Shown here: one piece after another, positions 20,922-31,642 of the stretch
Layout: each line of letters opens with the position of its first letter
How positions within the stretch are numbered: the stretch's first letter is position 1
Virus record (IMG/VR): IMGVR_UViG_2645727901_000008
DNA length: 64,000 nt
Source: a virus
Lineage: Duplodnaviria > Heunggongvirae > Uroviricota > Caudoviricetes
Direction: 5' to 3' (one strand)
The notes under the pieces: generated by a model
What the model was told of the DNA's origin: nothing
Seen by the model: only the letters and a program-made list of their open reading frames with translations
Databases searched by the model: none
Translations under genes and position numbers: made by a program

Positions 20922-21575
20922 CTATCCCTTCTTGAAATCAAAGTTGCTTGCGATGGCCTGGAAGGTGCCTCCAGCCTTGAAATCAATATTTTCGTCGGCT
21001 GTCACAGTAATGTTTTTGCCATTAACGCTGATGTTATCGGCTGATTTGACGTTAACACTCCCTCCCGCATTCACTACTACATCAGCCGGACCAATGATGT
21101 ATATCTGCCCTGATTCATTCATTCCAATCCTTGAGCCTGCTGCCGTATTCGCTATTTCATATCCACCGCCAGCCGTTCGCACTTCGAGCACATTGTTGCG
21201 GTGAATCACGAAATCTTTTGTCGCCGAAAATTGCGGGCGGGGAGGCGCTCCGTCTACTTCTGGTGGCGTCCAGCCGCTACCATTGCCTGACGCCTCCGGC
21301 GCGACGTTTGGTACTCCTCCAGGCGCATCCTGAGCTGCGCCAACTATCATTGGGCGTCTGGTATCAATTCGACCATTAACATCCAGATAAGGAAACTCTA
21401 CCCATACCAGGTCGCCTTTTACTGTAGGTACAAACGCGTTACCTATGGGTAACAGGTATTCTGCCCAGGGTAGATCGTCATCAGGAACGCCATTCCAGTC
21501 TGGTAAAACACGGACCTGAGCACGCATAAGCCCTGCCGGGTGCACAGTTCCAACAATTTGCGCTCTACGCTTCAT
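20922..21575 (-). CDS. Baseplate central spike protein (gpV-like)
   Basis: N-terminal OB-fold-like region then Gly-rich beta-helix-like C-terminus. Confidence 0.55.
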   Translation of the reverse strand: MKRRAQIVGTVHPAGLMRAQVRVLPDWNGVPDDDLPWAEYLLPIGNAFVPTVKGDLVWVEFPYLDVNGRIDTRRPMIVGAAQDAPGGVPNVAPEASGNGSGWTPPEVDGAPPRPQFSATKDFVIHRNNVLEVRTAGGGYEIANTAAGSRIGMNESGQIYIIGPADVVVNAGGSVNVKSADNISVNGKNITVTADENIDFKAGGTFQAIASNFDFKKG

Positions 21576-22552
21576 TTGTTCGGCACTCCTAATATCATTC
21601 GTGTTGTGTAGCCTACGCGGTCTTCAAAGTGCGCAACATTTTTTACTATCAGCTTGCGGGGCATTGATTCATCAATGCGGTTTTCCTGGTCATAGCGGTA
21701 TACGATAATCTCTATTACCATTCCCGGTTTTATATCCGGATTGCCTGCGACTTCTATATCCATTTTGGGGACGAGAGACAGCTGCATATTGCGAAGAGTT
21801 TCCATATCAGAATCGGATATATAACGCACTGGGAGTGAGCTATCGCCATATTCGACGTAGCCATCGGTCATGGAATACCCAACAAAACGATATTGATTCT
21901 TTGCTGTTGTCGCATGTTCCTGTTGGAGTAGGCGCATTTTGGACAAAGTGTATTCTGCTTTAGGGTTATTCCCCTCGTAGGTAAATGATGGCGTTTGCTT
22001 CATCAGATCAGCCAGGGTGTAAAAGTTAAATTCCCCACGGCATACCCAACATAATGCACCTTTGTCTCGCGCTATCTGCGAGAGCATTTTTGACGGTTTG
22101 TCACCGGCATTCAGATGATATGTAACTGCGCGTTTTAGCACGCTGCTGGTAATTTTAAGCTTGCCGGAATATGCCTTGAATATAGCGTCTGGTGTTTTGT
22201 TGGTATGTAAATTTGTGCGCGGGGAGGGGATCTTAAACCTGCGCACGTCTTCACTGACAGCAATAACGGTAACAACATCACCAGCCAGCATTGCAGACGT
22301 AACAAAGAAGTCTGTTTTAAAAGTGCCTGCATTACCGTTTGGATCGCCCATTTCAGCCACCAGCGATGCACCGTATTTGGCTTTCCAGTCATCAATTACG
22401 GTGCCGGTAGCGTCATGAATTTCCAGTTTTAGCAAAGGGGCTTTGAGGCTGGTTTTTTCTACATATACTGCGGTAAAAATCCAGTCTCGTGGCACTTTGT
22501 TATCGTTAATGAGCACTGACTGTAGAAAATATTGTTGTAACTCCTGGGCCAC
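21572..22552 (-). CDS. Putative baseplate protein
   Basis: 326-aa ORF coupled to flanking baseplate genes. Confidence 0.4.
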   Translation of the reverse strand: MAQELQQYFLQSVLINDNKVPRDWIFTAVYVEKTSLKAPLLKLEIHDATGTVIDDWKAKYGASLVAEMGDPNGNAGTFKTDFFVTSAMLAGDVVTVIAVSEDVRRFKIPSPRTNLHTNKTPDAIFKAYSGKLKITSSVLKRAVTYHLNAGDKPSKMLSQIARDKGALCWVCRGEFNFYTLADLMKQTPSFTYEGNNPKAEYTLSKMRLLQQEHATTAKNQYRFVGYSMTDGYVEYGDSSLPVRYISDSDMETLRNMQLSLVPKMDIEVAGNPDIKPGMVIEIIVYRYDQENRIDESMPRKLIVKNVAHFEDRVGYTTRMILGVPNK

Positions 22553-22555
22553 TTA

Positions 22556-23323
22556 TCACCCCATAGATATCGAGGTTTCGGTAATAATACGTTTTGCGTC
22601 CAACTCCCATGCTGTGATCACGTCTGCAATCACACTTATCGGCGCTTGTGTGGCATAAATACGCTCTTCTCCAATTGGTGCCGAAACATCCGTAAATCCG
22701 ACTTCTTTGGCATCCTGTATCGAGCAAATCAGCGGGACCGGGACACGAACAAGGTGAGTGGTTGCTTCAAATTGTGTACCTGTCATCAGGCGAAGCCGTG
22801 CGCCCAGCGAATTACACATCAGACTCATGGTCGCTTTATCAGTTGACATTAACGTAACGTCATACGTCAGAATGGCCTGGGTGTATTCCAGTTCTGCTAA
22901 AGGCATTCCGGTATCCGGTTCGCAAAAACTGGCTACTTTTTTGCGGTCAATCTGCTGATCATCGTTGATATAATTGATATCCATAGTGCGTGAGATATTG
23001 ACCAGGGGGAGAGCATCCCGGTTAATGTTCTGGTTTTCAGGTTTTCTCCCTTGCCCGGCATTTGCGCGACGAACTGCTTTAAGAAACTCGATCGCATTGT
23101 CGAAACGGGCCACATAGACACGCTCTGCTGGTGGACGATTCAGGAATGACGCAAAGCGTTTTTCTTCCGGCGCGGGGGCCACCAGTAAGATATCAGAAAA
23201 GATATTGCTGATTAGCGTAGCAAACGCGTTATCCACGTTTTCAAAGCCCGTGGTCTGGAATTTCCCTGTGCGTGAGGTTTGCCATTCACCTGTTCGCGCC
23301 AGGAGGGTTTTATTTGAAGTCAT
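22556..23323 (-). CDS. Putative baseplate/tail protein
   Basis: 255-aa ORF in the same operon. Confidence 0.4.
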   Translation of the reverse strand: MTSNKTLLARTGEWQTSRTGKFQTTGFENVDNAFATLISNIFSDILLVAPAPEEKRFASFLNRPPAERVYVARFDNAIEFLKAVRRANAGQGRKPENQNINRDALPLVNISRTMDINYINDDQQIDRKKVASFCEPDTGMPLAELEYTQAILTYDVTLMSTDKATMSLMCNSLGARLRLMTGTQFEATTHLVRVPVPLICSIQDAKEVGFTDVSAPIGEERIYATQAPISVIADVITAWELDAKRIITETSISMG

Positions 23324-24121
23324 TCGATCACTCCGTTTTGAGTCGTATCAAAATTCCTGGCAGGTATGCAGTAGTAAAGCGAACCAACATGCTGTGTGCC
23401 GTAGCTAAAAATACGGTGCACGTACCACCAGCGGCGGGCTACGCCGTTTACCATCTCTTCATTCCATTCAAGAATTGATCCGACGGGGACGTTATTTGCT
23501 GCAATACGCAGAATCAGAACATCATCGGTTAAGCCATCCTGCTCACCGTCTGCGTCAATCGCATGGAAAGAGTCACGCCCGTCCGGGTTATCCAGCACAT
23601 AAACGATTTCAGGTTCCTGGTAAGTCAGTTCGCGCTGGTTGTTATCCAGTTCAGTGAATGACTCTTCTCCTGTTTCGTCGCTGACTACCCCATATGTGCC
23701 AACATCTGGTCGATATAAGAGAGCCTGAAACGCGTCTGGGCTGGATTCAATAATCAGCATCCAGTCTGCGCGGATTTGGTCGTTAAAGGCTTTATGCCCG
23801 TTATAGCGTGCTTTTAGCTGTGGAGTTGGTTCTCTGCCAGCCAGGGAAGGTGGAAGTATGGCTATATCTGATTCGGCAGCATCCGGAGTAAGGCCAGCGT
23901 TGCTATCAGCAAAATTATCATGGCTATCAGCTTTGGCGGCGGGTTGCTCTTCCAGAATGCTGAATGAATCCGAACCGGTATTGCCATGTTCCGGCGCGCC
24001 TCCTGCATTCGCTTCAATCGGCGCTGGCGTTTCTCTCTGCGTGCTGTCATGTTCTGACTCATTACTTGCCAGGTTTGCATCGTCAGCAAACCATTCGTCA
24101 AAACGGCCCATAAGCATCCTC
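23320..24121 (-). CDS. Hypothetical acidic tail-associated protein
   Basis: ATG 24121 with GAGGA RBS (track start 24153 is further upstream). Confidence 0.4.
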
Positions 24122-24181: not shown

Positions 24182-24226
24182 TCCCAACATGGGACTAAAG
24201 TGCTTTACATTGTCCCATATTGGGAC
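24182..24226. promoter_or_regulatory. Two short palindromes upstream of higB (putative HigA operator)
   Basis: TCCCA-ACA-TGGGA and GTCCCA-TAT-TGGGAC inverted repeats. Confidence 0.45.
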
Positions 24227-24256
24227 TACTATACTTTCAGAGAGAAGGAATCTGTG

Positions 24257-24559
24257 ATGAAAATAATTTCGGTAAAAACACTAAGGGATTTCTGGGCGAA
24301 GAATCCCGATGCAGAACAGCCATTAAAGGCATGGGTTGATGAAGCAACAAAGGCTGACTGGAAAAATCCGGCTGAGATCAAAGAACAGTACCGGACAGCC
24401 AGCATCCTTAAAAACAGGCGCGTGGTGTTCAATATTAAGGGAAATGATTACAGGTTAATTGTCGCAATTGCTTATCAGCGAGGATGGATGTTCGTTAAGT
24501 TTATTGGAACACATAAGGAATACGATGCCATTGAAGCGGATACAATAGAACTGGAGTAA
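24257..24559 (+). CDS. higB: HigB-family mRNA interferase toxin
   Basis: 100-aa RelE/HigB-like sequence; toxin-first order with downstream HTH antitoxin. Confidence 0.75.
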   Translation: MKIISVKTLRDFWAKNPDAEQPLKAWVDEATKADWKNPAEIKEQYRTASILKNRRVVFNIKGNDYRLIVAIAYQRGWMFVKFIGTHKEYDAIEADTIELE

Positions 24560-24562
24560 ATC

Positions 24563-24922
24563 ATGAACATTAAACCTATCCGTACAGAACAAGATTATGA
24601 GGCCGCACTGCGTGCGGTCGAACCGATGTTCGATAACGAACCGGAAATGAACACACCGGAAGGCGATTTCTTTGAAGTAATGTGCCTGCTCATTGAAGAG
24701 TACGAGAAAAAGCATTACCCAATTGAGCCACCATCACCTATTGAAGCCATTAAATTCCGTATGGAACAGCAAGGGCTGACCGTGAAGGATCTGGAACCGG
24801 CGATTGGTAAGTCAAATCGAGTTTACGAAGTGCTTAATGGGACACGAAATTTGACGTTACCTATGATTCGTCGTTTACATGCCCAGTTTGGTATTCCACT
24901 GGAAAGTCTGGTTGGTGTTTAA
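24563..24922 (+). CDS. higA: HigA-family HTH antitoxin
   Basis: 119 aa with XRE-type HTH in C-terminal half, 3 nt after the higB stop. Confidence 0.75.
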   Translation: MNIKPIRTEQDYEAALRAVEPMFDNEPEMNTPEGDFFEVMCLLIEEYEKKHYPIEPPSPIEAIKFRMEQQGLTVKDLEPAIGKSNRVYEVLNGTRNLTLPMIRRLHAQFGIPLESLVGV

Positions 24923-24972
24923 GTTTGGCGGTCTGGAGGACCGCTTTTTATCTAAAATAAAAATTAGAAGGT

Positions 24973-25722
24973 TTGATAGCTTGTATGGGCAAAAATTCAT
25001 CAACAGAAAACACATCTACAATTGACTCAATCAAGGGCACAATGGATGAAGCCATAAAAGATAAATTATTTAATAAATTATTTGCATATGTGGTGGTTTC
25101 ATTTTTTGTCGTTAATTGGCAAGAAATACTAATTTTGTTTAAATCTAAATATGATATATACACAACACTGTCTATAGTATGGGTAGGGGATAAATATCAA
25201 ATCCCTTATTTTGGAACCTTCATTGTATCTCCGTTTTTAGCTCACTTTGTGATGCCGTTTATATATGGCACTATTGCGTCCATAGTGATGCCTTATATTA
25301 CTATGCGTATATCAAAACTCACTGGTAGAAATTATGCGCAAATAAGATACATTGACCATGAATTTGACTCAGAAGAGAAAGCAAGAGTAAAGGCGTTGCT
25401 GAGAAACCTAAAGAAAAAAGAGGAAGAGCTTTTAAAATTAGAGGAACAAATAGAAGGTCAACAAAAAATACTGAATACAATCGAAGAAAAGAAGAGAGAG
25501 ATTGAGAGTGCCAGAGTGGCTCTGTATCACGGTATAAAAGTAATTGTTGATATATATAAAGCAAAAGATAAAAGGATTTCCACCAAAGAAGATTTTGCCG
25601 ATTTATTAAAAGCAATTGAAGAAAGTGATTTTTATAAAGACACTGGGTTGTGGGGTATTAATAAATTAATAGATGACGTGGAGACAATATATGAGTCTCA
25701 ATCGACATCAAAGGACAAGTAA
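24973..25722 (+). CDS. AT-rich membrane protein with cytoplasmic coiled-coil
   Basis: Two or three predicted TM helices then Lys/Glu-rich coiled-coil; low GC; start may be ATG 24985. Confidence 0.5.
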   Translation: MIACMGKNSSTENTSTIDSIKGTMDEAIKDKLFNKLFAYVVVSFFVVNWQEILILFKSKYDIYTTLSIVWVGDKYQIPYFGTFIVSPFLAHFVMPFIYGTIASIVMPYITMRISKLTGRNYAQIRYIDHEFDSEEKARVKALLRNLKKKEEELLKLEEQIEGQQKILNTIEEKKREIESARVALYHGIKVIVDIYKAKDKRISTKEDFADLLKAIEESDFYKDTGLWGINKLIDDVETIYESQSTSKDK

Positions 25723-25755
25723 TATAAAAGGCGGGATAACCGCCTTTGTTGTAAA

Positions 25756-26952
25756 TTAAGAACCTTTCTTCACATACTCCATGAACATTTTTTCAGCTTG
25801 TGCAGGTGGTGTTCCTGCCATGACCAGCGCATCAATGAACGCCTGCTTCTTCAGTGCGAACTGATCGGCCAGGCGTTGCTGAAGCTCCTTGTTTTTCTGT
25901 TTCTCACGTTGCAACGCCGCTTCTTTTGCTGCCGCCCGTTTTTTCTGTGCGTCTGACAACTTTCTGGCCTTGGTCAGTTGGTCACGTAGCTTGTCAATCT
26001 TGCCGTTGTCCTTTGCCAGTTTTGTGCTTAAAGCGGCCTGGCGCTTCTGATAGAGCCTCCATTCGCGCTTGGCAGCGTCAACGTTTGTTTTACTGTTGCG
26101 ATTGCGATTAAACTCCCTCTCGTCTTCTTTTGAGAAGTGTTTGGTTGTACGGCGGCGATCGTCACCAAATGCAATTTGCGTTGCGGCCTTTTGTAACGCA
26201 CGAGCAATACTCATTTGCCAACTAGCGGACTGTAACCGCGTCATTGAGTGGATCACGTGTTTACAGGCGACGCCTTGTAGCTTAGGGTTACGAACTTTTG
26301 GATAGGCGTATTCTTTTGGCGGGGCCAGGGCAAAGTTACCCGCAGTAGCGATGTAACGATACCAGTATTGATGACGACCACAGTCACAATCGAAAGACAC
26401 CCGCCCGGCGCACAGTGATTTAGTGATTTTCAGAGCTGATTTATCGTCTTCTGCGATGTCATCGACCATCTGATCCCATTCTTCAAAGCGTATCCGGACG
26501 ATATGGTGCTGGTGGACGGATATATCCGATGCTTCTACGCGGATATGAATCACGTTGTGGCGAAGAGATACGGGTGTAGCTCTTTTGATACCAGATCCGT
26601 CATCCACGGCGTTATTTGCACGCTTAATATCGATTGCCTGGCTGGATGCCACCAGCTGGGCGTATGTGATGCCAGCCGTCTTGCTGTCATATTTTTCGCG
26701 TGTTTTACTCCGTAGCTTTTCGAAACCTTTCAGGTCGTCTCGCGTGAAGAACGTGCCGCCTTTTTTCTTCCCTAACTTGAGAATATCTTCGGCGGATTTG
26801 TTCCTCAGTCTACCTGGCGTCAGCGTCCGGTGAGCTTGTCGGCGCTTACGGGTTTGTTCTTTCCTGATAAGGTCGAATAAACGCGTGAAGTCCTTAGAGG
26901 ACAGGCCGTCAGTGATATAGCGCCCGTCCTGGTTTTTCAGGAAATCAGGCAT
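25756..26952 (-). CDS. SWIM-type zinc-finger protein with basic coiled-coil C-terminus
   Basis: CxCx(n)CxH pattern FDCDCGRH...ACKHVIH; 398 aa. Confidence 0.5.
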   Translation of the reverse strand: MPDFLKNQDGRYITDGLSSKDFTRLFDLIRKEQTRKRRQAHRTLTPGRLRNKSAEDILKLGKKKGGTFFTRDDLKGFEKLRSKTREKYDSKTAGITYAQLVASSQAIDIKRANNAVDDGSGIKRATPVSLRHNVIHIRVEASDISVHQHHIVRIRFEEWDQMVDDIAEDDKSALKITKSLCAGRVSFDCDCGRHQYWYRYIATAGNFALAPPKEYAYPKVRNPKLQGVACKHVIHSMTRLQSASWQMSIARALQKAATQIAFGDDRRRTTKHFSKEDEREFNRNRNSKTNVDAAKREWRLYQKRQAALSTKLAKDNGKIDKLRDQLTKARKLSDAQKKRAAAKEAALQREKQKNKELQQRLADQFALKKQAFIDALVMAGTPPAQAEKMFMEYVKKGS

Positions 26953-27274
26953 TTTCTATCTCCGGTTCCGCGCTCGCGTAATCACGGATCTTGTTCCTCA
27001 GCCATGCCACATCAGGAAGAGTTAACGTGGTCCCGGCGGGCATTTCTTCCATTTCTGACTCATGGCCCACCAGCACCCGGAATACCCAGCGCAAATCTGC
27101 ATTGCCATACGCCCTGTAGGCTGCAAGGTCTGAACGATATACTTCATCAATCTTTATCGTGTACTGGAAATTATCAGAGTGATACTCCGATACCCGCTTA
27201 ATCATTTCCTGGTGAAACAGCGCACGAAAAATATCGTCTTCAATGTACCTATCGTCGAGTCTGCTATAGCCCAT
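26945..27274 (-). CDS. Hypothetical protein
   Basis: 109-aa ORF coupled to the SWIM gene. Confidence 0.4.
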   Translation of the reverse strand: MGYSRLDDRYIEDDIFRALFHQEMIKRVSEYHSDNFQYTIKIDEVYRSDLAAYRAYGNADLRWVFRVLVGHESEMEEMPAGTTLTLPDVAWLRNKIRDYASAEPEIENA

Positions 27275-27467
27275 AACAAAGCCTCTCAGTCATAACATGG
27301 GGGAAACTGTATGCAGGGTGTGAAATGCGAGAAACAGACAGGCCACCAGTTCAGGGGGATGTGGTTCATAAATCCCCTCACTGGTGACAAGTGACTTTCA
27401 TTAATCTTTATGCGGGGGCCAGCTTCATTTGCTGGCATTAGATTAAAAATTAAACGGAGTGAATGAC

Positions 27468-27611
27468 ATGGATGTTATTCTAGAATTGTTAAAGCTTATT
27501 GATCTGTTTATGAACGCCTCATTGACCACTCAAATACTGGCGTCAATATTTTTGTTACTCTTCTACCTGGTATTGAGGGAGTTAACAAAGCTACTAATGT
27601 GATCAAAGTAT
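27468..27611 (+). CDS. Small hydrophobic peptide (47 aa), not in the ORF track
   Basis: ATG preceded by GGAG; hydrophobic core ILASIFLLLFYLVL; 3-prime end overlaps the convergent gene. Confidence 0.3.
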
Positions 27612-28256
27612 CACGGTATCTTCATCAACTTCTTTCCCAGCCAGTGACTTTGGCTGGGAGGTGCCTGCTTTAACTTTTTCATGCCCAATAATGGAAAGGA
27701 ACGAAGCGAGTATGCCTGTTTTTTGCTCTTTCTCGACTGTACCGGTCATCTGCTCTACATAATCTGCACTGGCAACGTTGTGGTATACGGTCGCGTAGCA
27801 ACACAGGATCATCAGAATATGCTCCGGCCTGATATCCTGCCAGTTCACCCTGTAGACTTCTTCTCCGTTACCGTTGTATTCGGTATCAACGATAGAGTCG
27901 GGGATTTCGAAAGCACCTTTGTTATTTTGCGGCAGGGATAATAGTTTCTGGAGTTTTAACTCTCTGTATCTTTCCATCCCGACGATGATTGCTGCTCTTC
28001 CATCGGCATGACGGGTCTTGAGAGTCACCTGACTTGCTCCGGTGCCAGCGGAGATCGTTGGCGTAATTTCGTCTACCAGTACCTTAAATTTGCTTTTCCG
28101 CAGGGCTGCTATAGCTGGAGGAATTTTTTGCTTTTGCTCCAATGCTGACGCGGGAAGGGGTTTTACTTCGTTAATAATGAGAGCACCGTCTTTCAGTATT
28201 GCAGTGAGCATTTGAGGCTTGCTGGTGGTCAGGCTGAATATTGCGATCTTTTCCAT
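27603..28256 (-). CDS. Hypothetical protein
   Basis: ATG 28256 with GGAGGAAGG RBS. Confidence 0.45.
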   Translation of the reverse strand: MEKIAIFSLTTSKPQMLTAILKDGALIINEVKPLPASALEQKQKIPPAIAALRKSKFKVLVDEITPTISAGTGASQVTLKTRHADGRAAIIVGMERYRELKLQKLLSLPQNNKGAFEIPDSIVDTEYNGNGEEVYRVNWQDIRPEHILMILCCYATVYHNVASADYVEQMTGTVEKEQKTGILASFLSIIGHEKVKAGTSQPKSLAGKEVDEDTVIL

Positions 28257-28524
28257 TGTCCTTCCTCCACGGATGACGGATACAAAAAAAGGCCGCACAT
28301 GGCGGCCTGCTTTGGCGTTATGACTCCCTACCGCGCTTCGGCTGAAAGTTAATCGTCAAAAGAACCTTCAACGGGAGCCGTTAGCGCGATGGATTATGTG
28401 CAGTTTGTGATTTCCAAAATAGTGTCAACCACTTTTTGTGGATTTTATTTTTTGACCGAAATTTGGCCTAAATCATGTTGATGTAGTTAATTGTTTTTAT
28501 AACATAAAACTTCATTTTGTTTAC

Positions 28525-29148
28525 ATGAAGGATGGTGTAGTGAAGTTAAGGGTTTTAGGGGCCGCGCTCGCGGCTATGTTGGGATGCGTATCTGCTAATA
28601 CTGCCAATGCAACTGCGTTACCTGCACAATTCAGGGCAGGGCAGCAGGTTATGAATAATGCTGGTGGGGATCATTCACAAGCGGCCATTATGGACTTTTG
28701 CAAGAGGGAGGGCATTCCATTACGGCCTGTTGGAACTCAGTTTATTGGTAAAACTGACTTTTGCGTTTTTGCATATACAGCATATCTGACGGACAAAGCT
28801 ATAACAAAAACAGGTTATTCAACCAAAGATACTCTTTCCAGATTAAGTCAGGGATGGCAGCAATTCGAAGTGTATCGCCAGCAAGGATTAGGTGAGTTAT
28901 TGCAACCACTTTTTATGCTTGCGTTGGTGCCCGAGGGGCAGCAATTTTTGGTTAAAAAGGGAATGCTTCGCCAAAGTGATATTGCCGGGTTCGATAGCAT
29001 GATGGCTTATGAGCGCAAACTAACCGAGCAGCGAAATAAAAAACCATCTGCTTCATGTGTGCAAAGTAAAACAGCAGAATACAGTGCAGTAGCCGGGCCT
29101 TTAGCCAAACAAATGGCAGAGCAATGGTGTAAAAAATACGGGCAATAA
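28525..29148 (+). CDS. Secreted protein with cleavable signal peptide
   Basis: N-terminal signal peptide ending ANA. Confidence 0.5.
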   Translation: MKDGVVKLRVLGAALAAMLGCVSANTANATALPAQFRAGQQVMNNAGGDHSQAAIMDFCKREGIPLRPVGTQFIGKTDFCVFAYTAYLTDKAITKTGYSTKDTLSRLSQGWQQFEVYRQQGLGELLQPLFMLALVPEGQQFLVKKGMLRQSDIAGFDSMMAYERKLTEQRNKKPSASCVQSKTAEYSAVAGPLAKQMAEQWCKKYGQ

Positions 29149-29168
29149 GTTACGCAGCGGAGGCAGAA

Positions 29169-29561
29169 TTGAAAAGATTGACTATTGCTTTACTGGCGTC
29201 TTTCCCTTTGATCGCGAGCGCCGGAAATTTACAAGTTAAGTGCGGTCGGTTTGATATAAAAATCTATCCAGATGCCATATTTCTGAATGGGAATAAGGTT
29301 GATAACGTACACCGAAAAACTAAATCTGACGTAATGAGCTATGTGTTCCAGGAGTATGCGGAGATGGGGGGAACTTACACGCTGTACTCGCTGGATGTTC
29401 CTTCTCGCGGTGATATGACATTATCCCATCAATGGCAGAACGCCGATGGCGAAGCTCTGCGCGAAGTTAAAACAGAAAAATGCGGCACTTTCCATTCTTT
29501 TAAAGGGAAAGTGCCAAATGTTAAATCTGTGCTTGAAAAACAGCGCGCAGGTGATTTTTAA
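29169..29561 (+). CDS. Small secreted protein
   Basis: Signal peptide MKRLTIALLASFPLIASAG. Confidence 0.5.
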   Translation: MKRLTIALLASFPLIASAGNLQVKCGRFDIKIYPDAIFLNGNKVDNVHRKTKSDVMSYVFQEYAEMGGTYTLYSLDVPSRGDMTLSHQWQNADGEALREVKTEKCGTFHSFKGKVPNVKSVLEKQRAGDF

Positions 29562-29649: not shown

Positions 29650-30267
29650 TCATTTTTGTCGGATCTTTTCCAGCATATTTAATTCATTATCACTTTCTGC
29701 TGCTGAGACGGTTGGCCTCACATTTCCGAAATATTTCCTGTGAGACTCATGACTTATGTATTCACCGACAGTTTCATTCTTGAATATACGAATTTGACAT
29801 ATGCGAGATCCAACAATAAGTTCTACAGGGCTATTCCCATGATTAAATAACTCTAAAGATATACAGCCTCTGTACCCTGGTTGTATCATGGTATTTAATG
29901 AAAGACCAAGCCTTGTATAGCTGCTTCTGGACAATACATCAGCGTAGCAATCTGGTGGCAAACAAACATATTCTAATGTTGTTGCCAGTACCACTTGATT
30001 CGGGTAAACAATGAATCTATCCCCAAGATCTCTCCTTGTTTCCTGGAAAAATGTTCTGATTGGTTGATGAGTATCATTGTTTTTTGATGGAATTAACTCT
30101 ATTGACGGCTTCCTTGTCATAATAGACACTAAAAAATCGTAACCAAGTCTAAGGTCTATGGTGAAGTTCCCAATTTGGTTTTTATTTAGAAGAGGTTCAA
30201 TGAACAACGACTCAGGTTCTTCTGATTCATAATATTGCAGCAATTCAGCTTTGCTTAGGAGATTCAT
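29650..30267 (-). CDS. Standalone dCTP deaminase-like enzyme (dUTPase fold)
   Basis: VLATTLEYVCLP, RSSYTRLGL and IQPGYRGCISLELFN align with E. coli Dcd motifs as recalled; ATG 30267 overlaps the upstream stop (ATGA), GGAG RBS. Confidence 0.7.
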   Translation of the reverse strand: MNLLSKAELLQYYESEEPESLFIEPLLNKNQIGNFTIDLRLGYDFLVSIMTRKPSIELIPSKNNDTHQPIRTFFQETRRDLGDRFIVYPNQVVLATTLEYVCLPPDCYADVLSRSSYTRLGLSLNTMIQPGYRGCISLELFNHGNSPVELIVGSRICQIRIFKNETVGEYISHESHRKYFGNVRPTVSAAESDNELNMLEKIRQK

Positions 30268-31337
30268 TGTGCACTCCATTTTTCAAGAATCATTACGTTT
30301 CGAATCGATTTTTCAACCAAATCATTTATAGTTTTTTCTATGGCTTCTTGTGACAACCCAGACCATATACCCGTAGGTTTTTCCCATTCAGAGCATAAGT
30401 ACTGCCAGCTGCTGTTAATAAAAGCATGCATTTCATTGTGGTCGCGAATAACAAAAGGACGCACATTATCAAAAGCTGATTTCACATCAAGCAAAGGTGT
30501 CGGCAATGTCAAACAAGGAGAAATAATCTGCCCACCATTATGTAAGGCTGATATCACAGCATTGAACATGCCAACAACTGGATTTTCCACTTTGTTCAAA
30601 AAGTCGCTTACAATTTTAACTCTATCTTCTGTGGATGGGTGAGTATAGCTTGCAGGATGAGAGCCAGCTAATTTGTATAAGAAATCTACCCCACTTTTTC
30701 CAATAAATTGGGCACTAAATAGATCTGCAAAATATTCTCTGCAATGATTTATCCAAATAACATCAGGTAGATTACTCCATTCTGGTCCAGGAAGTGTGCC
30801 TTTGTCCTTGGAACGATAGTTAAGACAGGCAAGCTCAGAAATACCTTTGCTAATATCAACGAAATGTCCCAATTCGTGATATAAAGGTATAGAGCATAAT
30901 GGTCGTCTTCTGTACATTTCAGGTAATGAAATCTGAATTAATTCGACATCGAATTTGACATTTAAAACTTCGTCAAATAAAGAATACAAATTCTTGTTTA
31001 CAGACTTAAAATAAAACCCATGCATATCTGGAGATAGGGCTGTGGTTATAAGTGTTTTTTCACTTATCCATTTTTTACAGGCATCATTTAAGCAATAGAC
31101 AATCTCGTAGGGAATTTTCTTTGTAGTACTGCCAGTGAAAAAATTAACTGCATCGGTGATAAAAAAAGTACAATCCGCAATTATTTTATCAGCAACATTC
31201 ACATGGTTTTCATAGAGCTTATCCACCGCTTCTTGTAGAACAGCAAGATATTCATGCATGTCTTTAGAAAAATAGGGAGATTCTGATATCTCCCTTAGCT
31301 TATTTCGAACTAATGTAAGTTGTGTAAATGCAAGCAT
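30264..31337 (-). CDS. HExxH metallopeptidase-like protein (ImmA/IrrE-like HELGH motif)
   Basis: PLYHELGHFVD motif in a 357-aa protein; start overlaps the upstream stop (TAATG). Confidence 0.55.
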   Translation of the reverse strand: MLAFTQLTLVRNKLREISESPYFSKDMHEYLAVLQEAVDKLYENHVNVADKIIADCTFFITDAVNFFTGSTTKKIPYEIVYCLNDACKKWISEKTLITTALSPDMHGFYFKSVNKNLYSLFDEVLNVKFDVELIQISLPEMYRRRPLCSIPLYHELGHFVDISKGISELACLNYRSKDKGTLPGPEWSNLPDVIWINHCREYFADLFSAQFIGKSGVDFLYKLAGSHPASYTHPSTEDRVKIVSDFLNKVENPVVGMFNAVISALHNGGQIISPCLTLPTPLLDVKSAFDNVRPFVIRDHNEMHAFINSSWQYLCSEWEKPTGIWSGLSQEAIEKTINDLVEKSIRNVMILEKWSAQ

Positions 31338-31642
31338 TAAATGTACTCTAATACATTCCGGGCCATTACGGGTTCTAACATATCTTCGCTAGTTACTTTG
31401 GTTAGCACCTGGGCGAGCGCCTTAGTGTGGCGTATCTCTACCGCGAGCGAGATGGACTCTCTGTGAGAAGGAATCTGTAATTGATCACCTTTATCTACAC
31501 TTAAGTTTGAGGCTTCTCTGATCACCTCATAAACCCGTAACTTTAACTGCTGTGACACTTCTTGTTGAGATGCTATAAGCTGAAGTACAGTCTTGATCAA
31601 CTTCAAAGAATCAGAAGCTTGCTGAGGAACCGCATAGAGCAT
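31337..31642 (-). CDS. Small protein, first gene of the three-gene cassette
   Basis: 101-aa ORF translationally coupled to the HExxH gene. Confidence 0.45.
   Translation of the reverse strand: MLYAVPQQASDSLKLIKTVLQLIASQQEVSQQLKLRVYEVIREASNLSVDKGDQLQIPSHRESISLAVEIRHTKALAQVLTKVTSEDMLEPVMARNVLEYI

What the first reader, a model, noticed from the sequence alone, without database searches (positions are those of the whole stretch)
25756..28256. SWIM zinc-finger protein operon of unknown function
The 398-aa protein combines a CxCx(n)CxH SWIM-like zinc finger with a basic coiled-coil tail and is coupled to a 109-aa ORF; a small hydrophobic peptide ORF (27468-27611) lies convergent to the neighbouring 231-aa gene. 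None has an assignable phage role.
Basis: partly seen in the sequence, partly recalled or inferred. Interest (0 to 1): 0.45.

Follow-up and report, generated by a model that had tools for sequence, protein, structure and literature searches.

The report
Known P1-type tail genes; gp25 has SWIM fold
These are not orphan genes: they are the D6/P1-type phage virion-assembly genes mat, 26 and 25. The one residual point of interest is that the essential tail protein gp25, still unplaced in the P1 virion, appears to be built around a zinc-binding SWIM domain.

Summary
The ORFs are real. The window is a D6-like (P1-related) E. coli plasmid prophage.

- **109-aa protein:** the ortholog of P1 gp26, the T4 gp53-type baseplate "plug", whose structure is solved in the P1 baseplate.
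- **398-aa protein:** the ortholog of P1 gp25, the "tail stability" gene defined by amber mutants.
- **231-aa ORF:** 217 aa from its likely ATG; the ortholog of P1 Mat ("maturation control").

The SWIM observation holds and adds something:
- C-x-C-x(36-43)-C-x-H occurs in 260 of 269 family members; the other nine are fragments.
- SWIM is the only Pfam family recurrently matched, though below threshold.

P1 studies found no HHpred match for gp25, and two cryo-EM studies did not place it. The 26-25 pair, usually with overlapping or abutting stop and start codons, is conserved across distant contractile-tailed phages of Proteobacteria, often with Mat-like and terminator-like genes nearby.

My best inference is that gp25 is a zinc-stabilised adaptor or assembly factor working with the gp26 plug. 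That mechanism is inferred, not shown.

The parts
27603..28256 (-). mat ortholog ('maturation control', 217 aa from the ATG; the open frame extends to a GTG at 28298)
   Evidence: 99.5% identical to D6 Mat; 33% identical to P1 Mat over 95% of its length, E = 2e-31. phrog_1837, E = 1e-94. No Pfam, NCBIfam or PDB relative.
27468..27602 (+). small hydrophobic ORF (44 aa; D6 orf77), convergent with mat
   Evidence: Translation. phrog_38362, E = 4e-28. Intact in 30 loci, all of which carry mat; substitutions by codon position 48/19/89. GGAG lies 8 nt upstream of the ATG. Function unknown.
26945..27274 (-). gene 26 ortholog: T4 gp53-type baseplate 'plug' that joins wedge to hub
   Evidence: Solved P1 chain Gp26 (9ay5_S, 9vzk), E = 1e-16. 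phrog_1269 'baseplate wedge subunit', E = 2e-36. Role in the P1 baseplate from cryo-EM.
26945..26952 (-). 8-nt overlap ATGCCTGA between the gene 26 stop and the gene 25 start
   Evidence: Sequence. Across 158 loci the junction is mostly -8, -4, -1 or at most 12 nt.
25756..26952 (-). gene 25 ortholog ('tail stability' protein, 398 aa, pI 10.06)
   Evidence: 57% identical to P1 gp25 over 334 aa, E = 2e-112. phrog_1722, E = 5e-197. 636 cluster representatives at E <= 0.001.
26083..26691 (-). globular core of gp25 (about residues 88-290): three-strand sheet plus helices carrying the SWIM-type site
26257..26388 (-). C189-x-C191-x38-C230-x-H232 putative zinc site, with a highly conserved 38-residue insert (…YWYRY…E..FPK.RNP.L.G..CKH)
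   Evidence: Invariant columns. Present in 260 of 269 members, spacer 37/38 in 253. Pfam SWIM sub-threshold in 8 of 41 members.
25819..26082 (-). basic helical tail of gp25 (residues 291-378), probably a coiled coil
   Evidence: Single long helix in the model. Period 3.5; a/d positions 62% hydrophobic in one register. Family median net charge of the tail +12. Replaced by Pro/Lys-rich linkers in some members.
25765..25806 (-). short C-terminal helix (residues 383-396) after the tether; a similar 'G-[ML]-[ST]-x-E-Q' tip recurs in distant members
   Evidence: Model. C-terminal sequences of distant members read by eye.
25727..25747 (-). hairpin plus T-run right after the gene 25 stop (terminator-like)
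   Evidence: Consensus scan.
20922..24111 (-). rest of the P1-type operon: genes 7 (stopper), 24 (tail terminator), 6 (hub) and 5 (spike)
   Evidence: D6 and P1 annotation and gene order. phrog_1906 for gp7. Structural roles in P1.
24200..25722 (+). oppositely oriented higB-higA-orf249 cassette that interrupts the operon between genes 25 and 7
   Evidence: Annotation. PADLOC PD-Lambda-2_A, E = 2e-41, and the N-terminal part of PD-Lambda-2_B, E = 7e-43. P1 has genes 25 and 7 adjacent.

Best explanation
**Shown.** The region carries the D6-type orthologs of three P1 virion-morphogenesis genes.
- Gene 26 encodes the small T4 gp53-type 'plug' that fastens the baseplate wedges to the central hub.
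- Gene 25, whose start overlaps the gene 26 stop, encodes the P1 'tail stability' protein.
- mat lies 328 bp upstream of gene 26.
- In P1, genes 26-25-7-24-6-5 form one late operon. Here a toxin-antitoxin-like cassette splits that operon after gene 25.

**Supported by sequence and fold.** gp25 has a globular core with a SWIM-type Cys2-Cys-His site carrying a conserved 37/38-residue insert. A strongly basic coiled-coil tether and a short terminal helix follow the core.

**Inferred.**
- The site binds one structural zinc ion.
- The SWIM core is a protein-binding module, as in Shu2.
- gp25 works together with gp26 at the hub-wedge junction. It would act either as a transient assembly factor or as a low-copy, flexibly attached component.
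- Without gp25 the wedge ring would be poorly locked and tails would be unstable.
For: **Orthology**
-.
- P1 operon and late promoter LP26.

**P1 literature**
- gp26 is structurally placed as the plug between wedge and hub.
- Genes 25 and 26 were found as amber mutants, so they count as essential.
- gp25 gave only a weak virion mass-spectrometry signal (2 peptides) and no HHpred match above 50%.
- Neither cryo-EM study lists gp25 among its modelled virion proteins, and no gp25 relative is found among PDB chains.

**SWIM fold**
- Motif invariance.
- SWIM is the only Pfam family recurrently hit: 8 of 41 members, best E = 0.0024.
- Core model pLDDT 89.8.
- Phage SWIM-type proteins appear among the BFVD hits.
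- Long inserts and a protein-binding role for SWIM are documented in Shu2, where n = 59.

**Functional link to gp26**
- A gp26-like ORF lies directly upstream in 151 of 160 loci, including 71 of 76 divergent ones. hhalign probability is 97.8%.
- The junction is mostly -8, -4 or -1 nt.
- The wider module includes gp24-like (90%) and Mat-like (85.7%) genes.
Against: - No direct evidence here that gp25 binds zinc, or that it binds gp26.
- The window protein itself gets no Pfam SWIM hit at E <= 1.
- In Xanthomonas phage Rb1 no gp26-type ORF is seen in the ORF list for the roughly 650 bp upstream of the gp25 homolog.
- In the divergent phages the pair lies among head and neck genes rather than baseplate genes. 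So adjacency alone does not fix the site of action.
- The weak virion signal fits either a contaminating assembly factor or a true low-copy component.
- CRISPRi knockdown of P1 gene 25 lowered plating only about 10-fold.
Confidence: 0.55

Rival explanations
1. gp25 is a genuine low-copy virion component hidden from symmetric cryo-EM. It could be a basic protein in the hub cavity or tube lumen alongside the unresolved tape-measure protein Sit. It might be ejected with the DNA and bind it, as a pilot-type protein.
For: - It was detected in CsCl-purified P1 virions with 2 peptides. That is the same count as gp7 (a hexamer in the cryo-EM model), while gp26 (six-fold) was missed entirely.
- The protein is very basic: pI 10.06, tail net charge about +12. 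Some members have Lys/Pro-rich, histone-H1-like tails.
- The tape measure and other flexible parts were unresolved in the P1 maps.
Against: - No density has been assigned to it.
- The tight, conserved coupling is to gp26, not to the tape-measure gene.
- DNA binding is untested.
Confidence: 0.25
2. The Cys/His signature is not a SWIM zinc site. The residues serve another structural purpose and the resemblance to SWIM is convergent.
For: - Pfam SWIM is below threshold everywhere and absent for this protein.
- The spacer is atypical.
Against: - The four residues are invariant across a family going down to 28% identity.
- CxC sits at the end of a strand and CxH at the start of a helix.
- SWIM proteins are the top PDB hit and recur in BFVD.
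- A cytoplasmic Cys3His cluster is typical of a zinc site (general knowledge).
Confidence: 0.12
3. gp25 is a DNA-binding regulator, a nucleoid-associated or MvaT-like protein, rather than a morphogenetic protein.
For: - The Xanthomonas homolog is annotated as an MvaT/P16 regulator.
- The tail is basic.
- SWIM domains have been proposed to bind DNA as well as proteins.
Against: - P1 gene 25 mutants are classed as tail-defective: 'tail stability' in the P1 record, and amber mutants.
- The gene sits in a late tail operon next to gp26 across the whole family.
- No MvaT or other DNA-binding Pfam hit.
Confidence: 0.04
4. One reading: an accessory operon of unknown function, unrelated to virion structure or replication.
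For: No Pfam or NCBIfam family covers the 398-aa or 231-aa proteins.
Against: Direct orthology to P1 genes 25, 26 and mat, and a solved structure for gp26.
Confidence: 0.02

Closest known systems
Phage P1 gp25 ('tail stability' protein) and its D6 ortholog orf74
   Same: - 98% identical to D6 orf74 and 57% identical to P1 gp25.
- Same length class.
- Same position directly after gene 26.
   Different: - The C-terminal roughly 60 residues are not aligned to P1 by tblastn.
- In this window and in D6, a reverse-oriented cassette separates gene 25 from gene 7; in P1 they are adjacent.
Phage P1 gp26 / T4 gp53 (baseplate plug, LysM-like wedge-hub connector)
   Same: - Sequence match to the solved P1 Gp26 chain.
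- PHROG 'baseplate wedge subunit'.
   Different: - 109 aa here against 125 aa in P1.
- Pfam Phage_gp53 and Phage_tail_X match only below their cut-offs (E = 0.05-0.07).
SWIM zinc-finger domain (Pfam PF04434), e.g. ZSWIM8 and yeast Shu2
   Same: - The CxCxnCxH signature.
- CxC at a strand end and CxH at a helix start.
- Best structural matches are SWIM proteins.
- Shu2 shows that long inserts are tolerated and that the domain can be a protein-protein interface.
   Different: - The spacer is fixed at 37/38 residues and is itself the most conserved part of the protein.
- Sequence similarity is below Pfam's threshold.
- The context is virion assembly, not recombination or ubiquitin ligation.
Phage P1 Mat ('maturation control')
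   Same: 33% identity over 95% of the protein.
   Different: - In P1, mat lies about 75 kb away, next to ref, with its own late promoter and C1 operator.
- Here, in D6 and (as Mat-like genes) in 43 of 78 divergent loci, it lies just upstream of genes 26-25.

Membership tests
P1 gp25 family (phrog_1722) | Full-length sequence homology to P1 gp25 | tested here: met
   tblastn 57% identity over 334 aa, E = 2e-112. phrog_1722, E = 5e-197, covering residues 2-396.
P1 gp25 family (phrog_1722) | Position immediately downstream of the gene 26 homolog in a tail gene cluster | tested here: met
   8-nt overlap with gene 26. Same order in P1 and D6. 151 of 160 loci.
P1 gp25 family (phrog_1722) | Loss of function gives unstable tails or non-viable phage | not testable with these tools
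   Known only for P1, from amber mutants.
SWIM zinc finger (PF04434) | CxCxnCxH signature | tested here: met
   C189, C191, C230 and H232 are invariant. Present in 260 of 269 members.
SWIM zinc finger (PF04434) | Typical spacer length (n about 6-16) | tested here: not met
   n = 38 here and 36-43 across the family. The typical range and the Shu2 exception (n = 59) come from PMC5727457.
SWIM zinc finger (PF04434) | Match to the Pfam model at its gathering score | tested here: not met
   No hit at E <= 1 for the window protein. 8 of 41 relatives hit, but only down to E = 0.0024.
SWIM zinc finger (PF04434) | SWIM-like three-dimensional fold | tested here: met
- BFVD returns SWIM-type phage proteins at E = 2.5e-4 and 2.6e-3.
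- The scores are modest.
SWIM zinc finger (PF04434) | Binds one zinc ion through the four motif residues | not testable with these tools
T4 gp53 / P1 gp26 baseplate plug | Sequence homology to a structurally placed member | tested here: met
   PDB 9ay5_S/9vzk Gp26, E = 1e-16. phrog_1269, E = 2e-36.
T4 gp53 / P1 gp26 baseplate plug | Match to Pfam Phage_gp53 or Phage_tail_X at the gathering score | tested here: not met
   13.6 and 13.2 bits against cut-offs of 21 and 22.
P1 Mat family (phrog_1837) | Full-length sequence homology to P1 Mat | tested here: met
   33% identity, 95% coverage, E = 2e-31. phrog_1837, E = 1e-94.
Type I toxin-like small membrane peptide (considered for the 44-aa ORF) | Small hydrophobic peptide with a regulating antisense RNA | tested here: inconclusive
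   It is hydrophobic and shows coding-type conservation. No antisense partner or toxicity could be tested.

The most novel reading that the evidence does not exclude
The gp25 family would be the first SWIM zinc-finger protein with a role in virion assembly. On this reading it is a widely conserved, zinc-dependent adaptor or chaperone, made together with the gp53-type plug. It either loads or locks that plug at the hub-wedge junction, or it rides in the tail as a flexible, basic, ejected component. Together with Mat it would define a conserved 'mat-26-25' module of contractile-tailed phages of Proteobacteria that current virion structures do not account for.
Probability: 0.35. Interest if true: 0.5.

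Novelty: already known. Interest (0 to 1): 0.3.

Why it matters
As a locus it is ordinary: annotated tail and maturation genes of a well-known phage group. The useful residue concerns P1, a workhorse of bacterial genetics. P1 still has an essential tail gene (25), and a maturation gene (mat), with no fold, no biochemical role and no place in the published virion structures.

A confident SWIM-type model, an invariant putative zinc site and a conserved partnership with the gp26 plug give concrete handles for experiments: ligand mutants, pull-downs and focused cryo-EM. They also correct mis-annotations such as 'MvaT regulator' and 'hypothetical protein' across many prophages.

Tried and rejected
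- **Direct searches with the 398-aa protein:** Pfam, NCBIfam and PDB sequence searches gave nothing useful. A 41-sequence profile against the PDB also found nothing.
- **AFDB50 fold library:** unavailable.
- **Alignment A2:** too diverse for locus scanning.
- **Gene fusions:** no fusion of gp25 with gp26-, fam2-, Mat- or gp7-like domains among 269 family members.
- **The conserved downstream gene of divergent phages (fam2, phrog_4597):** no detectable relation to P1 gp7, gp24, gp6 or gp5. No Pfam or PDB match. No counterpart in the window or in the parts of P1 searched (nt 1-50,000 and the gene 26-5 region).
- **Mat/fam4 profile:** no Pfam or PDB match.
- **P1 late-promoter consensus (AAGTGACTT-N4-TAnnAT):** built from eight annotated P1 promoters. 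It is not enriched in the window (8 hits against 5.3 in shuffles; 2 exact boxes against 0.93 expected). I therefore could not assign a promoter to genes 26-25.
- **Literature dead ends:** the primary P1 genome paper was not held. A 'SWIM' hit in a Xanthomonas phage paper referred to swimming motility.
- **Ligand geometry:** model coordinates are not exposed, so it was not checked.
Full report
**What the window is.** The 12 kb around the finding is 95% identical to phage D6 over 63% of its length. It is 96-99.6% identical over its full length to ~90-110 kb E. coli plasmids. These are P1-related plasmid prophages. RefSeq calls the finding's genes 'hypothetical protein' (twice) and 'maturation control protein'. 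The curated D6 record calls them 'similar to P1 gene 25' (tail protein), 'similar to P1 gene 26' (baseplate wedge subunit) and 'similar to P1 gene mat', and also lists the small ORF as orf77.

**Checking the observation.**
- All ORFs exist.
- The gene 26 stop and the gene 25 start overlap by 8 nt, ATGCCTGA.
- A hairpin plus T-run follows the gene 25 stop.
- The small ORF is 27468-27602, not 27468-27611.
- The 231-aa frame most likely starts at the ATG at 28256, giving 217 aa.

**What the three proteins are.**
- *109-aa protein.* It matches the solved P1 chain 'Gp26' (PDB 9ay5/9vzk) at E = 1e-16 and phrog_1269 'baseplate wedge subunit'. In P1, gp26 is the T4 gp53 counterpart. Two cryo-EM studies model it as six copies that tie the wedges to the hub, as the 'plug'.
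- *398-aa protein.* It is 57% identical to P1 gp25 (E = 2e-112) and matches phrog_1722 'tail protein' at E = 5e-197.
- *217-aa protein.* It is 33% identical to P1 Mat over 95% of its length.
- *Operon.* In P1, genes 26-25-7-24-6-5 form one late operon behind promoter LP26. Here the same genes lie in the same order, but a reverse-oriented higB-higA-orf249 cassette sits between genes 25 and 7.

The statement that none has an assignable phage role is therefore wrong.

**What is known about gp25.**
- The P1 record notes 'tail stability'.
- In the P1 virion proteome gp25 met the two-peptide threshold (8.4% coverage). HHpred gave no match above 50%, and the authors state that its function remains unknown.
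- The two P1 cryo-EM studies list the proteins they modelled: gp7 as stopper, gp24 as terminator, gp26 as plug, and others. One says it identified almost all proteins from head to tail. gp25 is not among them.
- No gp25 relative is found among PDB chains, either with the single sequence or with a profile.

**Is the SWIM reading right?** Four independent lines support it.
1. *Motif conservation.* C189, C191, C230 and H232 are invariant in alignments going down to 28% identity. Of 269 collected family members, 260 carry C-x-C-x(36-43)-C-x-H; the other nine are fragments. The spacer is 37 or 38 in 253 members.
2. *Pfam.* Scanning 41 diverse members, SWIM (PF04434) is the only family matched by more than two: 8 members, best E = 0.0024. 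That is below Pfam's threshold, and the window protein itself has no hit.
4. *Fold against viral models.* In BFVD the few significant matches include phage proteins labelled 'SWIM-type domain-containing'.

The spacer is longer than the usual 6-16 residues. However, Shu2 has n = 59 and uses its SWIM domain as a protein-protein interface. I treat gp25 as a divergent SWIM-type protein. Zinc binding itself is untested, and I could not inspect ligand geometry.

**Rest of the architecture.**
- The protein is very basic: pI 10.06, with 84 K/R against 49 D/E.
- Residues 291-378 form one long helix. It shows heptad periodicity, and one register has 62% hydrophobic a/d positions.
- Across the family this region varies in length and is always cationic, with a median net charge of +12. 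In some members it is replaced by Pro/Lys-rich linkers.
- It ends in a short helix with a recurring G-[ML]-[ST]-x-E-Q-like motif, read by eye.
- Overall this looks like a tether with a docking tip.

**Family and context.**
- The family has 636 representatives at E <= 0.001 in the 50%-clustered library, nearly all 330-450 aa.
- It occurs in only 23 of about 50,000 isolated phage genomes. Yet it is found in many Gamma- and Betaproteobacteria genomes, on ~80-100 kb contigs and inside chromosomes.
- In 162 fetched loci, a gp26-type ORF lies directly upstream of the gp25-type gene in 151 of 160 cases. That includes 71 of 76 in the divergent set, confirmed by hhalign at 97.8%.
- The junction is mostly -8, -4, -1 or a few nucleotides.
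- The divergent phages are contractile-tailed, with sheath and PmgG-like genes.
- Recurrent neighbours are a gp24-like terminator (hhalign 90%), a Mat-like protein (85.7%, E = 5e-6) and a ~169-aa protein of unknown function just downstream.
- For the Mat-like family, the profile's best hits in the window and in P1 are the two mat genes.
- So the mat…26-25 neighbourhood of this window recurs widely. P1 is an exception, with mat elsewhere.

**How it most likely works.**
- *Shown:* orthology, gene order, overlap, motif conservation and fold resemblance.
- *From the literature:* the position of gp26 and the essentiality of genes 25 and 26.
- *Inferred:* gp25 binds one structural zinc ion. Its SWIM core is a protein-binding module. 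It acts with gp26 at the hub-wedge junction as a transient assembly factor or a flexible low-copy component, and its loss leaves tails unstable.

The main rival is a hidden low-copy tail component in the hub or tube lumen beside the unresolved tape measure. I cannot exclude it. gp25 gave as many peptides as gp7 (a hexamer in the cryo-EM model), and its charge would suit such a site. A regulator role, as implied by the 'MvaT' annotation of the Xanthomonas homolog, is unlikely given the tail phenotype and the context.

**The small ORF.** It is intact in 30 loci, all with mat. Its substitutions are biased to third codon positions (48/19/89), and it has a GGAG 8 nt upstream of the ATG. It is probably a real, lineage-restricted membrane peptide; its function is unknown.

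**Verdict.** The locus is already known. The SWIM assignment for gp25 and the conserved mat-26-25 module are modest new annotation-level insights that make an unresolved piece of P1 tail assembly testable.

Noticed in passing
window 24200-25722 (+): A three-gene cassette (higB-like, short HTH higA-like, and a 249-aa protein whose only weak family matches (Pfam, NCBIfam) fall in its coiled-coil-like stretch) sits in reverse orientation inside the tail operon, between genes 25 and 7. The first two genes match PADLOC PD-Lambda-2_A (E = 2e-41) and only the first 119 of 402 positions of PD-Lambda-2_B (E = 7e-43). The third gene matches no defence model. It may be a variant defence or addiction module.
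   Followed up: partly
window 27389-27407 (+): AAGTGACTT-TCAT-TAATCT: the 9-mer is identical to the -22 box of P1's late promoter LPmat and is followed by a -10-like hexamer. It lies upstream of the 44-aa ORF and points antisense to mat. Such boxes are not enriched in the window, so it may be chance. It is invariant in 29 D6-like loci, but so is the whole segment.
   Followed up: partly
window 28290-28308 (-): A GC-rich hairpin with a T-run lies between the mat upstream region and the mat ribosome-binding site, overlapping the alternative GTG start. It could be an attenuator. Read on the other strand, it could be the end of a transcript from the small ORF that would be antisense to all of mat.
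   Followed up: no
window 29650-31642 (-): A low-GC block (0.374) encodes a dCTP deaminase (dcd) plus 357-aa and 101-aa proteins. D6 has no DNA match to this stretch: its match to the query ends at about window position 28,576. It looks like an accessory or defence-type island, but PADLOC gave no match.
   Followed up: partly
window 28525-29561 (+): Two genes (207 aa and 130 aa, both with hydrophobic N-termini that look like signal peptides; phrog_12786 and phrog_13864, function unknown) occupy the position where D6 has a simB-like gene.
   Followed up: no
loci L086-L165, gene directly downstream of the gp25-like gene: A ~169-aa protein family (phrog_4597, unknown function) follows the gp25-like gene in 62 of 78 divergent loci. 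It is also seen in Xanthomonas phage Rb1 (L005 7884-8387). It has no detectable counterpart in the parts of P1 searched or in the D6-type window, and no Pfam or PDB match.
   Followed up: yes
L005 6758-7879 (Xanthomonas phage Rb1): The gp25-family member of this phage is annotated 'transcriptional regulator MvaT'. A 2026 paper describes it as the ORF most conserved with Acinetobacter phage ABMM1. The label is probably an artefact of the basic, low-complexity tail.
   Followed up: partly
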